Shown here: in pieces, positions 36,701 to 42,700 of the stretch
Layout: every line of letters begins with the position of its first letter
Numbering within the stretch: the stretch's first letter is position 1
NCBI RefSeq assembly: GCF_003790525.1
Contig: NZ_CP033635.1
Source of the DNA: Escherichia coli
GTDB taxonomy: Bacteria; Pseudomonadota; Gammaproteobacteria; Enterobacterales; Enterobacteriaceae
Direction: 5' to 3' (one strand)
DNA length: 64,000 nucleotides
Program-made: the position numbers

Positions 36701-39700
36701 GCGAACCGTTTGGCCCACTAACGGGTACCCTGATCCCGCCGTTTATCTCGCACTCTATCGCGATAATCGAAGGCTTGCTGGCGCTGGAACAGGGTGTGAA
36801 ATCTATCACCGTTGGTTATGGACAGGTCGGCAGCCTGACGCAGGATGTTGCGGCGATCCAGTCTCTGCGTGAACTTGCACACGAATATTTTCAGAGCTAT
36901 GGCTATACCGACTATGAATTAAGTACCGTGTTTCACCAGTGGATGGGCGGCTTTCCGGAAGACGAATCGAAAGCGTTCGCTATTATCTCCTGGGGCGCAG
37001 CCGTCGCGGGGATGTCTGGTGCCACCAAAGTCATCACCAAAAGTCCGCACGAAGCCTGGGGTATCCCGACTGCCGCTGCCAACATTCAGGGGCTGAAAGC
37101 CTCCCGCCAGATGCTCAACATGGTCAACGAGCAGAAATTCCCGCCGTGCCCTGCGGTTGAACTGGAAATTGAACTGATTAAGAGCGAGGTTCGCGCGGTA
37201 CTGAATAAAGTGTTCGAACTGGGTAATGGTGATATTGCGCGCGGTACGGTGCTGGCATTTGAAGCGGGCGTACTGGATGTGCCGTTTGCGCCAGCCGCCT
37301 GCAACGCGGGCAAAATTCTTCCGGTCCGTGACAACACCGGCGCGATACGCGTACTGGAAGCCGGAGCCGTTCCATTGCCAAAAGATATTCTCGACCTCCA
37401 CCACGATTACGTTGCGGAACGCGCACGCTTTGAAGGACGCCAACCGACATTCCAGATGGTTGTAGATGACATCAATGCTGTATCCCACAGTAAATTAATA
37501 GGAAGACCATAATGAAAATAAAACAGGCTCTGTTCACCGCTGGCTACTCCTCATTCTATTTCGATGACCAGCAGGCGATAAAAAACGGAGCGGGTCATGA
37601 CGGCTTTTTTTATACCGGGGAGCCGGTAACACAGGGGTTTAACGCCGTTCGTCAGGCCGGGGAGTGCGTATCGGTACAGTTGATTCTGGAAAACGGCGCG
37701 GTCGCCGTAGGTGACTGTGCTGCCGTACAGTATTCCGGGGCAGGTGGTCGCGATCCACTGTTCCTCGCTGAGCACTTTATTCCGTTCCTCAACGACCATA
37801 TCAAGCCATTACTGGTAGGCCGCGATGTGGATGCTTTCCTGCCGAATGCCCGTTTCTTCGACAAATTGCGTATTGACGGCAACTTGCTGCATACCGCCGT
37901 GCGCTACGGATTATCACAGGCGCTGCTTGATGCTACCGCGCTGGCAACCGGCCGTCTGAAAACTGAAGTGGTCTGTGATGAATGGCAGTTGCCACGCGTG
38001 GCGGAATCCATTCCATTATTTGGTCAGAGCGGGGACGATCGATATATCGCCGTCGATAAGATGATCCTTAAGGGCATCGACGTGCTGCCCCATGCACTGA
38101 TTAATAACGTCGAAGAGAAACTGGGCTTTAAAGGTGAAAAACTGCGCGAATATGTCCGCTGGCTGTCGGATCGTATTCTGAGCAAGCGCACCAGCGCACG
38201 CTACCACCCTACCCTGCACATCGATGTATACGGCACTATCGGTCTGATCTTCGATATGGATCCGCTTCGCTGTGCGCAATACATCGCCAGCCTGGAAAAA
38301 GAAGCGCAAGGCCTGCCGCTCTACATTGAAGGGCCGGTCGATGCCGGTAACAAGCCCGATCAAATTCGCCTGCTGACCGCGATTACCAAAGAGCTGACGC
38401 GCCTCGGTTCCGGCGTGAAAATTGTGGCCGATGAATGGTGTAACACCTACCAGGATATTGTTGATTTCACTGATGCCGCCAGTTGCCACATGGTGCAAAT
38501 CAAAACCCCGGATCTGGGCAGTATTCACAACATCGTCGATGCAGTTCTTTATTGCAACAGCCACAGCATGGAAGCGTACCAGGGCGGCACCTGCAATGAA
38601 ACTGATGTCAGTGCCCGCACCTGTGTCCACGTCGCCCTTGCCGCTCGCCCCATGCGTATGCTGGTAAAACCAGGGATGGGCTTTGACGAAGGCCTCGATA
38701 TCGTCTTCAACGAAATGAATCGTACTATCGCGCTGTTGCAGGCTAAGGATTAACAAATGGCTCGTTCTTTTAAAGTCTTATCGCCAACGGCAATCCTCGG
38801 GTATGGATTCCCGGAAGAGAGCTTCCGCAAAGCGATGGCAGAATCGCCCGATCTGATCGCCGTTGATGCAGGCTCTTCCGATCCTGGCCCCCACTACCTC
38901 GGGGCGGGCAAACCGTTTACCGATCGCGCAGGGGTCAAGCGTGATTTGCGCTATATGATCACCGCAGGCGTGCAAAATAATATACCGGTGGTGATCGGAA
39001 CGGCCGGCGGTTCTGGTGCCGCTCCACACCTGGAGTGGTGCCGAGAAATAATTCATGAGATTGCCCGGGAAGAGCAACTCGCGTTCTCGATGGCGCTGAT
39101 CCCGGCAGACGTTGACAAAGCCATCGTCCACCAGGCGCTGGATAACGGCAAAATCACGGCGCTGGATTTTGTCCCGCCGTTAACCCACGACGCGATTGAC
39201 GAAAGTACGTATATCGTCGCGCAAATGGGCATCGAACCCTTCCAGCGGGCGCTGAAAGAAGGCGCGCAAGTGGTGCTGGGCGGGCGCGCTTACGACCCGG
39301 CCTGCTTTGCTGCGCTCCCGATCATGCAAGGCTTTGATGAAGGTCTGGCGCTGCATTGTGGGAAAATCCTTGAATGCGCGGCAATCGCCGCAACGCCCGG
39401 CTCAGGCTCTGACTGTGCGATGGGCATCATTGATGACAACGGCTTTACGCTGAAGACATTTAATCCGAAGCGTAAATTTACCGAAACGTCAGCGGCTGCA
39501 CACACACTGTATGAGAAATCCGATCCCTACTTCCTGCCTGGACCTGGCGGCGTGTTGAACCTGAAAGGCTGCACATTTAAAGCGGTCAATGACGGCGAAG
39601 TGTACGTCAGCGGTTCTAAGCATGAAGAAACGCCGTATGCCCTGAAACTGGAAGGTGCGCGACGGGTGGGCTTCCGCTGTCTGACCATCGCAGGAACGCG

Positions 39701-42700
39701 CGACCCGATCATGATCGCCGGGATCGATAAAATCATCGATGAAGTCAAAACCAGCGTTTCACGTAACCTGTCGCTCGACGATGACAGCATTCGCATCAAT
39801 TTCCACCTGTACGGCAAAAACGGGGTGATGGGCGACCATGAACCGATGCAAACTGCCGGGCATGAGCTGGGGATTGTCCTTGATGTAGTTGCACCGACCC
39901 AGGAAATTGCCAATAGCGTTTGCTCGCTGGTGCGCTCTACCATGCTGCACTACGGCTATGAAAACCGCATCGCTACCGCAGGCAATCTGGCGTTCCCGTT
40001 CTCCCCTTCTGATATCCAGGGCGGGCCGGTATACGAATTTTCCATATATCACCTGATTGAAGCCAACGACGCTCTGCGTTTTGATTTCCATATTGAACAG
40101 GTGACGCCAGAAGGAGTTCAGGCATGAAACAGTCAATTGTCTCACTGGCGCAAGTCATTCGTTCGAAAAATGCCGGACCTTACGAACTGGTTTTAGATAT
40201 TTTATTTAAAACGAAAGAAAACTATGAGCGAGTTAAATCATCAGGGCAATTAACCCCAGAACTGATTGCGCGCTTATATCATGTTGAACCTGACTTTATT
40301 CACCGTATTGTCTGGTTTGATCCTTCTAACGCAGTAAAAATCGTCATGCCACGAGATATTATCTCCGGGAATGTAGGTGACAATGATGTCTATGGTGCAC
40401 AGCAACATGCACCTTTATTAAATATGAGTTTCGATTTGTAAAAATCCGAATACTTTTAGCCAACTGACATCCCGTCACTTATTGCAGTTCAACACTTCAG
40501 CTATTTGTAAGGTTGTAATAGCAGGTAGATGCCTGAATCTCTATTCAGGCTTCTACTTCTCCTGATTCTGATTTATCGCCGTGCACCTGATGGAGGAAAA
40601 AATGAAGAAAATAAGTTTAACCACGATGATTCTTTTGGCGCTGGTACTTGGAATGATTATCGGCGTAGTGCTCAATAACACTGCTTCACCGGAAACCGCA
40701 AAACTCTATGCGCAAGAAATATCGATATTCACGACGATTTTCTTACGACTGATAAAAATGATTATCGCTCCGTTAGTGGTCTCTACCCTGGTGGTAGGTA
40801 TAGCTAAAATGGGAGATGCCAAAGCCCTTGGTCGTATTTTTTCTAAAACACTCTTTTTATTTATTTGCGCCTCATTGCTGTCAATCGCCTTAGGCTTGAT
40901 AACAGTAAATTTCTTCATGCCAGGCACAGGAATTAATTTTGTTGCACACGGAGCCGAAACCACCGGAGTGGTCGCGTCAGAACCCTTTACGCTAAAAGTA
41001 TTTATTTCGCATGCTTTCCCCACCAGCATTGTCGATGCCATGGCGCACAATGAAATTTTGCAAATCGTGGTGTTCTCAATTTTCCTCGGCTGTAGCCTGA
41101 CGGCGATTGGTGAGAAAGGCAGCGCCATCGTTCACGCCTTAGATTCGCTGGCACATGCCATGTTAAAGCTCACTGGCTACGTCATGCTCTTCGCTCCCCT
41201 GACCGTATTCGCCGCTATTTCAGCATTGATTGCTGAACGAGGACTGGCAGTTATGGTGAGCGCCGGGATCTTTATGGGTGAATTTTATTTCACCATGTTG
41301 TTACTTTGGGTGCTGCTTATCGGTCTGGCCATCGTTTATGTCGGCCCCTGCATCAGACGCCTGACCCGTGCCCTTTCGGAACCCGCCCTGCTGGCATTTA
41401 CCACATCCAGTTCTGAAGCGGCTTTTCCGGGAACGCTTGAAAAACTGGAGCAATTTGGCGTTTCCCCCAAAATTGCCAGCTTTGTCTTACCCATTGGCTA
41501 CTCATTTAATCTCGTTGGATCAATGGCCTACTGCTCCTTCGCCACAGTTTTCATCGCCCAGGCCTGCAATATCCATTTATCCATCGGTGAGCAAATCACC
41601 ATGCTGTTGATCCTGATGTTGACCTCGAAAGGAATGGCTGGCGTACCACGCGCCTCAATGGTGGTTATCGCCGCCACGCTCAACCAGTTCAATATTCCGG
41701 AAGCGGGGCTGATCTTGCTGATGGGCGTTGATCCGTTCCTTGATATGGGGCGTTCCGCGACAAACGTCATGAGCAACGCAATGGGCGCTGCGATGGTGAG
41801 TCGGTGGGAAGGCGAACATTTCGGCGAGGGCTGTCGGGGTAAAGCATTAAAACCCAATGAATCGAACGTTGCTCTGCCCTGAGGGGGATCTTAAGCAATC
41901 AGAAGCCAATGACTACGCATTTTTATAAGCCGGATCATGAAGTTAGACGGCAATTAAGTAAAACTAACGTTTAAGGTGAAAAGTGAAATATGTCCAAACC
42001 ATTTATCTGGCAAGAACCGTTTCTACAAAATAAAGACGGTACAGAATATACATTAATTAGCGATCAACATATTACAGTAACGGAATTAGACGGCGAAGAA
42101 GTGATAAAAATCGCTCCTGAAGCATTAACGCTGCTTGCCCGGCAGGCATTTTATGAAGCCTCTTTTTTCTTACGTTCCGCTCATTTGCAACAGGTCGCCA
42201 GCATTCTTAACGATCCGCACGCCAGTAGTAATGATAAATACGTTGCGTTGCAGTTATTACGTAATGCTGAAGTCTCAGCAAAAGGGGTATTACCCAACTG
42301 TCAGGATACCGGCACCGCAACTATTGTTGCCAGTAAAGGGCAACAGATATGGACCGGAGGTAACGACGCTGAAGCCTTAAGCAAAGGCATTTACACCACT
42401 TTTCAGGAAAATAATCTGCGCTTTTCACAAAATGCGCCACTGGATATGTTTACCGAAGTCAATACGCAAACCAATCTCCCGGCGCAGATTGATATCAGCG
42501 CCGTCGCTGGTGATGAGTACCATTTTCTCTGTATTAATAAAGGGGGCGGCTCTGCCAATAAAGCCGCGCTTTATCAGGAAACCAAATCCCTATTGCAACC
42601 AGAAAAACTGACCGCATTTTTAATCGAAAAAATGAAATCGCTGGGCACCGCTGCCTGCCCGCCTTACCACATCGCCTTTGTCGTCGGAGGGCTTTCAGCC

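What the first reader, a model, noticed from the sequence alone, without database searches (positions are those of the whole stretch)
38757..40441. Translationally coupled DUF1446/DUF4387 pair inside the glutamate-mesaconate operon: candidate for the missing downstream step
Between methylaspartase and the transporter lie a 456-aa DUF1446 (AtuA-like) protein and a 105-aa DUF4387 protein whose start overlaps the upstream stop (ATGA), implying a stoichiometric complex. The neighbouring genes yield mesaconate and citramalate, and to my recollection the further fate of citramalate in these organisms has been described as unresolved. This conserved uncharacterised pair is therefore a plausible candidate for an enzyme acting on a C5-dicarboxylate intermediate (for example a lyase, isomerase or CoA-independent cleavage), or for an accessory function of the cluster.
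Basis: inference. Interest (0 to 1): 0.7.

Follow-up and report, generated by a model that had tools for sequence, protein, structure and literature searches.

The report
Two-subunit citramalate lyase CmlAB genes

Summary
A 456-aa AtuA/DUF1446 ORF (38757-40127) and a 105-aa DUF4387 ORF (40124-40441) overlap by ATGA. They lie between methylaspartate ammonia-lyase and a GltP-like transporter in the glmS-glmL-glmE-mal-...-fumD-cobO operon of E. coli SMS-3-5.

The two proteins are 92% and 85% identical over their full length to chains A and B of PDB 9ERQ and 9EVF. The depositors named these chains citramalate lyase subunits CmlA and CmlB. They were crystallised with AMPPNP plus citramalate and with ADP plus pyruvate, and released in October 2025. 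A 2026 preprint uses cmlAB from Raoultella planticola (a gift of I. [quoted passage not shown]

My survey of 80 genomes from many phyla agrees:
- cmlB follows cmlA in 79 of 80 loci.
- mal lies directly upstream in 71 of 80.
- No CitCDEFXG homologue lies within 10 kb in any locus.
- Every long relative is an AtuA-DUF4387 fusion.

Still open are the role of the bound nucleotide, the conditions under which E. coli expresses the operon, and a conserved P-loop gene next to cmlB outside Enterobacterales. Public annotation (RefSeq, Pfam, NCBIfam) still lacks the function.

The parts
38757..40127 (+). cmlA: large subunit of citramalate lyase (456 aa; AtuA/DUF1446 family)
40124..40441 (+). cmlB: small subunit of citramalate lyase (105 aa; DUF4387)
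   Evidence: ORF. Pfam DUF4387, E 3e-39. 88/104 residues identical to PDB 9ERQ/9EVF chain B, named 'Citramalate lyase, subunit B (cmlB)'. It lies directly downstream of cmlA in 79 of 80 surveyed loci.
40111..40127 (+). Coupling junction: AAGGAG Shine-Dalgarno (40111-40116), 7-nt spacer, then ATGA start/stop overlap (40124-40127)
   Evidence: Read directly from the sequence. A 4-nt start/stop overlap of this kind occurs in 37 of the 79 other loci.
38744..38759 (+). mal/cmlA junction: TAAGGA Shine-Dalgarno inside the end of mal, mal stop TAA at 38751-38753, cmlA ATG at 38757
   Evidence: Read directly from the sequence.
34211..34660 (+). glmS: glutamate (methylaspartate) mutase subunit S
   Evidence: RefSeq annotation of the identical record.
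34660..36048 (+). glmL: mutase accessory/reactivating protein
   Evidence: RefSeq annotation.
36067..37512 (+). glmE: glutamate mutase subunit E
   Evidence: RefSeq annotation.
37512..38753 (+). mal: methylaspartate ammonia-lyase, which makes mesaconate
   Evidence: RefSeq annotation. It lies directly upstream of cmlA in 71 of 80 loci.
40602..41882 (+). GltP/DctA-family dicarboxylate/amino acid:cation symporter
   Evidence: RefSeq annotation. NCBIfam hits to DctA and GltP fall below the equivalog cut-offs.
41990..43642 (+). fumD: class I fumarase/mesaconase, which makes (S)-citramalate, the substrate of CmlAB
   Evidence: NCBIfam NF011921, 1285 bits, above its cut-off. FumD was characterised in PMC4682846.
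43652..44254 (+). cobO: ATP:cob(I)alamin adenosyltransferase, which supplies the B12 coenzyme for the mutase
   Evidence: NCBIfam TIGR00708 and NF004637, above their cut-offs.
44258..44284 (+). Terminator-like hairpin (11 bp, 9 G-C) at the end of the operon
   Evidence: Consensus scan. This is a pattern match only.
44288..45193 (-). Convergent LysR-family regulator, a candidate regulator of the operon
   Evidence: RefSeq annotation. It is conserved next to the cluster in enterobacterial loci and in some Rhodocyclales.

Best explanation
The two genes encode the large (CmlA, AtuA/DUF1446 fold) and small (CmlB, DUF4387) subunits of one enzyme. It is a citramalate lyase that needs no CoA ester and no acyl-carrier protein. 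In this operon glutamate mutase (GlmSE, with GlmL and CobO) converts glutamate to 3-methylaspartate. Mal removes ammonia to give mesaconate, and FumD hydrates mesaconate to (S)-citramalate. CmlAB then cleaves the C2-C3 bond of citramalate to give pyruvate and acetate, which completes the methylaspartate pathway. Three things are shown: the orthology to the solved CmlAB, the physical A-B complex with citramalate or pyruvate bound, and the in-vivo lyase function of the Raoultella enzyme. Three things are inferred: that the E. coli SMS-3-5 proteins have the same activity, that the ATGA overlap serves equimolar synthesis of the two subunits, and that the bound adenine nucleotide (AMPPNP or ADP in the crystals) is a cofactor or effector and not a substrate consumed stoichiometrically.
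For: The two proteins match PDB 9ERQ/9EVF chains A and B over their full length (E 1.6e-292 and 5e-57). These chains are named citramalate lyase subunits cmlA and cmlB. Identity is 420/456 and 88/104, and none of the 36 differences in CmlA falls on a column invariant across the clade. The entry titles are 'AMPPNP - citramalate complex' and 'ADP - pyruvate complex'. [quoted passage not shown] Growth of an acetyl-CoA auxotroph on mesaconate depended on the cmlAB plasmid, and label reached acetyl-CoA. In 80 loci from many phyla the order is glmS-glmL-glmE-mal-cmlA-cmlB. cmlB is adjacent in 79 of 80 and mal is directly upstream in 71 of 80. No CitC, D, E, F, X or G homologue lies within 10 kb of cmlAB in any of them. 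All 17 relatives longer than 520 aa, out of 150 representatives, are AtuA-DUF4387 fusions. The 10-kb operon is inherited as one block in 1117 of 5426 E. coli genomes. [quoted passage not shown]
Against: I could not find or read the primary paper behind 9ERQ/9EVF. The enzymology therefore rests on the depositors' names, the entry titles and a preprint from a second laboratory. In that preprint the enzyme supported growth only after laboratory evolution, and never with racemic citramalate. No activity has been measured for the E. coli SMS-3-5 proteins. Kronen & Berg detected neither citramalate lyase activity nor expression of the operon in E. coli O157:H7 under their conditions. The nucleotide in both crystal forms shows the reaction is not a simple metal-dependent aldol cleavage, and its role is unknown to me.
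Confidence: 0.88

Rival explanations
1. Same enzyme, different chemistry. ATP phosphorylates the C4 carboxylate of citramalate, the acyl phosphate is cleaved to pyruvate and acetyl phosphate, and the phosphoryl group either returns to ADP on the enzyme (ATP as a catalytic cofactor, net product acetate) or leaves as acetyl phosphate for Pta/AckA. This refines the best explanation and does not contradict it.
Against: The fold similarities are at noise level for alpha/beta domains. The preprint describes acetate as the product, and its evolved strains up-regulated Acs, which fits free acetate. The nucleotide could equally be allosteric or structural.
Confidence: 0.25
2. The pair is not the lyase itself. 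It is an accessory factor of the cluster, for example a nucleotide-dependent regulator, a chaperone, or an enzyme acting on another C5 intermediate such as methylaspartate or mesaconate.
For: CmlA relatives are often mis-annotated as '3-methylaspartate ammonia-lyase'. cmlAB stands alone, without mal or glm, in Shewanella, Accumulibacter and Desulfospira.
Against: Citramalate and pyruvate are the ligands in the crystals. Expression of cmlAB alone gave mesaconate-to-acetyl-CoA flux in E. coli K-12 derivatives. No other candidate lyase is encoded in any of the 80 clusters.
Confidence: 0.03
3. The pair acts on a CoA ester (citramalyl-CoA), as AtuA is supposed to act on 3-hydroxy-3-isohexenylglutaryl-CoA.
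For: The literature tentatively assigns AtuA as a CoA-ester:acetate lyase.
Against: No CoA transferase or ligase is conserved in the clusters. The crystal ligand is free citramalate. The preprint calls the route CoA-independent.
Confidence: 0.03
4. In this E. coli strain the genes are intact but physiologically silent, so the operon is cryptic and the pair contributes nothing under natural conditions.
For: Kronen & Berg found no condition under which E. coli O157:H7 expressed the cluster, and no growth on glutamate. E. coli needs external corrinoids to make the B12 coenzyme (established knowledge).
Against: The whole 10-kb block is kept at 95-100% identity in 1117 genomes with open reading frames annotated as intact. 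This argues for purifying selection (inference).
Confidence: 0.15

Closest known systems
CmlAB citramalate lyase (PDB 9ERQ and 9EVF; chain A identical to the protein of Klebsiella michiganensis DSM 25444; the enzyme circulated as 'Raoultella planticola Cml')
   Same: Subunit sizes are the same (456 and 105 aa). Identity is 92% and 85% over the full length, the gene order mal-cmlA-cmlB and the 4-nt start/stop overlap are the same, and the operon is the same.
   Different: There are only 36 and 16 substitutions, none at clade-invariant positions of CmlA. The enterobacterial relatives also carry glsA and sumT in the cluster, which this E. coli island lacks.
Citrate-lyase-type citramalate lyase of Clostridium tetanomorphum (CitDEF-like complex with an acyl-carrier subunit)
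   Same: The net reaction, (S)-citramalate to acetate plus pyruvate, is the same, and so is its place in the methylaspartate pathway (PMC4682846).
   Different: There is no sequence relationship. No CitC, D, E, F, X or G homologue lies in or near any cmlAB cluster. CmlAB has no ACP subunit or prosthetic-group genes, has two subunits instead of three, and binds an adenine nucleotide.
AtuA of the acyclic terpene utilisation cluster (Pseudomonas, Thauera)
   Same: Both belong to Pfam family PF07287. The proposed chemistry is analogous: release of acetate from a 3-hydroxy-3-alkyl acid to leave a ketone.
   Different: AtuA is about 600 aa (615 aa in Thauera linaloolentis), the length of the AtuA-DUF4387 fusions seen, whereas here the two parts are separate genes. 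The supposed AtuA substrate is a CoA ester, the gene context differs (atu versus glm/mal), and the AtuA assignment is tentative and untested.
Succinyl-CoA:citramalate CoA-transferase plus (S)-citramalyl-CoA lyase
   Same: Both cleave the citramalate skeleton to pyruvate and a C2 unit.
   Different: That route needs CoA activation and yields acetyl-CoA. No such genes lie in these clusters, and most enterobacteria lack citramalyl-CoA lyase genes according to PMC4682846.

Membership tests
CmlAB two-subunit citramalate lyase (as in PDB 9ERQ/9EVF) | Full-length sequence orthology of both subunits to the solved enzyme | tested here: met
   E 1.6e-292 and 5e-57, with 420/456 and 88/104 residues identical and end-to-end alignment. 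The AF2 model superposes on 9evf_A with TM 0.91.
CmlAB two-subunit citramalate lyase (as in PDB 9ERQ/9EVF) | Adjacent, co-translated cmlA-cmlB genes | tested here: met
   ATGA overlap in the window. cmlB is adjacent in 79 of 80 loci. Natural fusions exist.
CmlAB two-subunit citramalate lyase (as in PDB 9ERQ/9EVF) | Placement in a methylaspartate-pathway cluster that supplies (S)-citramalate | tested here: met
   glmS-glmL-glmE-mal lie upstream and fumD downstream. mal is directly upstream in 71 of 80 loci.
CmlAB two-subunit citramalate lyase (as in PDB 9ERQ/9EVF) | Catalysis of (S)-citramalate to pyruvate plus acetate | not testable with these tools
   Known only from the depositors' naming, the ligands in the entry titles and a preprint on the Raoultella enzyme.
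CmlAB two-subunit citramalate lyase (as in PDB 9ERQ/9EVF) | Retention of the residues that bind the nucleotide and the substrate | tested here: inconclusive
   I had no access to the coordinates. All clade-invariant columns and the 14 family-wide invariant residues (D42, G44, G87, G158, G176, R177, D180, G192, E253, P263, G265, E299, G305, G353) are kept, but which of them touch the ligands is unknown to me.
Citrate-lyase-type citramalate lyase (CitDEF-like) | Homology to the CitE and CitF subunits, and an ACP subunit with its prosthetic-group genes | tested here: not met
   Pfam finds only AtuA and DUF4387. BLASTP with CitC, D, E, F, X and G of this same strain finds nothing in the ORFs of 81 loci at E 1e-5.
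AtuA (acyclic terpene utilisation protein A) | Match to Pfam PF07287 | tested here: met
   E 7e-19, 68 bits, residues 63-394. This is a divergent member.
AtuA (acyclic terpene utilisation protein A) | Location in an atuABCDEFGH-type cluster with geranyl-CoA carboxylase | tested here: not met
   The neighbours are glm, mal, gltP, fumD and cobO. No carboxylase or acyl-CoA genes appear among the conserved neighbours.
AtuA (acyclic terpene utilisation protein A) | Single polypeptide of about 600 aa | tested here: not met
   Here there are two genes, of 456 and 105 aa. Thauera AtuA is 615 aa. Whether bacterial AtuA carries the DUF4387 part was not tested directly.

The most novel reading that the evidence does not exclude
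CmlAB may be the first characterised member of a large class of nucleotide-dependent carbon-carbon lyases (more than 2000 clusters at 50% identity). In this reading ATP replaces CoA or ACP as the activating group: a carboxylate is phosphorylated, the acyl phosphate is cleaved, and ATP is regenerated or acetyl phosphate is released. The many AtuA/DUF4387 pairs and fusions in other contexts (TRAP, ABC and MFS transporter clusters, fungal genes, the atu cluster) would then cleave other 3-hydroxy-3-alkyl acids by the same chemistry. Outside Enterobacterales, a conserved third gene next to cmlB (a TsaE-like ATPase fused to an AlaX-like hydrolase domain) would be an undescribed accessory factor.
Probability: 0.3. 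Interest if true: 0.65.

Novelty: already known. Interest (0 to 1): 0.27.

Why it matters
The assignment closes the gap left open in 2015 for the methylaspartate pathway of enterobacteria. About one fifth of complete E. coli genomes, including the O157:H7 lineage described by Kronen & Berg, carry a complete gene set for glutamate to ammonia, acetate and pyruvate. It also gives the first functional anchor for two widespread families, AtuA/DUF1446 and DUF4387, which RefSeq, Pfam and NCBIfam still leave unnamed and which some records mislabel as methylaspartate ammonia-lyase. The practical value of this check is annotation transfer. In my sample the glm/mal context holds for relatives down to 57% identity to this CmlA, the lowest identity among the 80 loci kept. 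The five relatives at 34-50% that I looked up sit in other contexts.

Tried and rejected
- **Primary paper.** I used all ten literature searches. None found the paper behind 9ERQ/9EVF, only the 2026 preprint that uses the enzyme. The kinetics and nucleotide dependence therefore could not be read.
- **Family libraries.** NCBIfam has no model for either protein.
- **Promoter and RNA scans.** The sigma-70 scan found fewer sites than in shuffled sequence, so no promoter is claimed. Rfam found nothing in 31000-46500, including no cobalamin riboswitch.
- **CitDEF hypothesis.** I considered that a CitDEF-type or citramalyl-CoA lyase might be encoded nearby and make the pair redundant. This is rejected: no hits in 81 loci.
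- **P-loop neighbour.** I considered that the P-loop neighbour of cmlB might also exist in this window. This is rejected: no tblastn hit in the window better than E = 2.
- **Complex prediction.** I did not model the A-B complex, because the co-crystal already shows it.
- **Upstream ORFs.** PADLOC and NCBIfam searches of the two upstream hypothetical ORFs gave nothing.
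Full report
**Where the window comes from and what is there.** The 1685 bases of the finding are 100% identical to Escherichia coli SMS-3-5 (NC_010498.1, 755011-756695). In that record the two genes are annotated 'acyclic terpene utilization AtuA family protein' and 'DUF4387 domain-containing protein'. An AAGGAG Shine-Dalgarno sequence sits 7 nt upstream of the second start, and the first gene starts 3 nt after the stop of methylaspartate ammonia-lyase. Pfam assigns AtuA (PF07287, formerly DUF1446; E 7e-19) and DUF4387 (PF14330; E 3e-39). 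NCBIfam has no model for either protein. The gene order on the + strand is glmS, glmL, glmE, mal, the pair, a GltP/DctA-type symporter, fumD, cobO. A strong terminator-like hairpin at 44258-44284 and a convergent LysR-family gene follow.

Kronen & Berg 2015 (PMC4682846) characterised FumD of this cluster as a mesaconase that makes (S)-citramalate. They tested citrate lyase, isocitrate lyase and methylisocitrate lyase as possible citramalate-cleaving enzymes and found no activity. [quoted passage not shown] They also noted the DUF1446 gene downstream of mal as a protein of unknown function that is often mis-annotated as methylaspartate ammonia-lyase.

[quoted passage not shown] The enzyme was expressed as cmlAB with one ribosome-binding site per subunit. 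After laboratory evolution, an acetyl-CoA auxotroph grew on mesaconate only while it carried the cmlAB plasmid, and isotope labelling showed mesaconate carbon entering acetyl-CoA. I could not find the primary paper in the held library.

**Independent comparative evidence gathered here.** A scan of one genome per species returned 583 confirmed relatives, of which the best 80 were kept. These are 57-92% identical and come from Enterobacterales, Rhodocyclales, Riflebacteria, Aminicenantes, Spirochaetes, Lentisphaerae, Firmicutes, Shewanella and Desulfobacterales. I called ORFs in these loci and compared them with the window's proteins.
- cmlB lies directly downstream of cmlA in 79 of 80 loci; the one exception is a contig end.
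- mal lies directly upstream in 71 of 80. Four loci have no room for it. Five lack it within 10 kb (Accumulibacter, three Shewanella, Desulfospira), and there cmlAB stands alone among unrelated genes.
- A 4-nt start/stop overlap recurs in 37 loci, and most of the others have gaps of 20 nt or less.
- A search with CitC, D, E, F, X and G of this same E. coli strain found no homologue in any ORF of these loci. No known citramalate-cleaving system is encoded next to these glm-mal clusters, which leaves the lyase step to CmlAB.
- Among the 150 best representatives of the wider family, all 17 proteins longer than 520 aa carry a DUF4387 domain after the AtuA domain. The two whose contigs I examined have fungal-type neighbours. 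Gene fusion is classical evidence that two polypeptides work as one unit.
- In E. coli the pair is found in 1125 of 5426 complete genomes and the entire 10-kb operon in 1117, so it is inherited as a block.

Residues kept in 95% or more of 103 full-length relatives at 33-62% identity are D42, G44, G87, G158, G176, R177, D180, G192, E253, P263, G265, E299, G305 and G353. H200, K203, E206, C207, D63, Y252, R307, E370 and H432 are kept in 85-95%. These are candidates for catalysis and nucleotide binding. Residues invariant only within the CmlA clade, such as K52, R57, H91, Y179, R239, K254, R393, R404 and D419, are candidates for citramalate recognition. This mapping is inference, because I had no coordinates.

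**Comparison with what is known.** The net reaction is that of the clostridial citramalate lyase, but the protein is unrelated to it. There are no CitDEF-type subunits, no acyl-carrier subunit and no prosthetic-group genes. The large subunit belongs to the AtuA family. [quoted passage not shown] That reaction also releases acetate from a tertiary 3-hydroxy acid, so the two assignments are chemically consistent. The window genes nevertheless fail the context and architecture criteria for AtuA proper.

More distant AtuA/DUF4387 pairs (34-50% identity) remain paired but sit in other contexts. One locus has a TRAP transporter and a GntR/FCD regulator and carries two pairs in tandem. Others sit next to an MFS transporter and a flavoprotein, next to an M20 peptidase, or next to a LacI regulator. 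The citramalate lyase label should therefore be transferred only within the clade that keeps the glm/mal context. In my sample that clade extends down to 57% identity to this CmlA, the lowest identity among the 80 loci kept.

**Verdict.** Novelty is 'already known': structures were released in October 2025, the enzyme has been named CmlAB, and a second laboratory has used it. The interest that remains lies in the unexplained nucleotide, in the unknown conditions of expression in E. coli (Kronen & Berg found none), in the lag of public annotation, and in an undescribed conserved neighbour outside Enterobacterales.

The E. coli island (about 31.4-45.8 kb of the window) occupies the sucD-cydA interval that holds mngR-mngA-mngB in K-12. 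It begins with an AT-rich stretch (34-39% G+C) carrying two ORFs with no family match. These two ORFs co-occur with the operon in 1134 genomes.

Noticed in passing
[not shown]
   Followed up: partly
window 32217-33161 and 33242-33664 (+), within the AT-rich stretch 31000-34200: Two hypothetical ORFs (314 and 140 aa) lie in a 34-39% G+C segment between cydA and glmS. They have no NCBIfam or PADLOC match. The segment is present at 80% coverage or more in 1134 E. coli genomes, almost the same set that carries the glutamate operon.
   Followed up: partly
window about 31400-45850: The whole island (two hypothetical ORFs, glmSLE-mal-cmlAB-gltP-fumD-cobO and the LysR gene) fills the sucD-cydA interval. 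In E. coli K-12 that interval holds sdhX, mngR, mngA and mngB, so this is an alternative cassette at one chromosomal site.
   Followed up: partly
Proteins P0243, P0266, P0274, P0287, P0297, P0314, P0317, P0334, P0336, P0339, P0347, P0349, P0364, P0365, P0372, P0374, P0389: All 17 relatives longer than 520 aa are natural AtuA-DUF4387 fusions. The two whose contigs were examined (P0266, P0336) have fungal-type neighbours such as Fungal_trans regulators and MFS transporters.
   Followed up: partly
L030 (Accumulibacter), L061, L075 and L077 (Shewanella), L063 (Desulfospira): In these loci cmlAB (57-68% identical to the window's pair) stands alone with no mal or glm genes within 10 kb, among unrelated neighbours such as rpoBC or large sensor-like proteins. 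The source of citramalate there is unknown.
   Followed up: partly
L083 4055-5817 and 7001-8692: Two AtuA/DUF4387 pairs lie in tandem next to a GntR/FCD regulator, a TRAP transporter (DctPQM), ornithine-cyclodeaminase-like fragments and an ABC transporter. These paralogous pairs probably act on other carboxylates.
   Followed up: no
Database names of CmlA relatives (P0002, P0060, P0072): Several CmlA homologues are deposited as '3-methylaspartate ammonia-lyase'. Kronen & Berg already remarked on this mis-annotation in 2015, and it still propagates.
   Followed up: no
window 40442-40601: The 160-nt spacer between cmlB and the transporter gene contains a weak terminator-like hairpin (40531-40550; 8 bp, poor T tail). 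It may mark partial termination or a processing site inside the operon.
   Followed up: no
window 31000-46500: No Rfam family reaches its gathering score. In particular there is no cobalamin riboswitch in front of this B12-dependent operon.
   Followed up: yes
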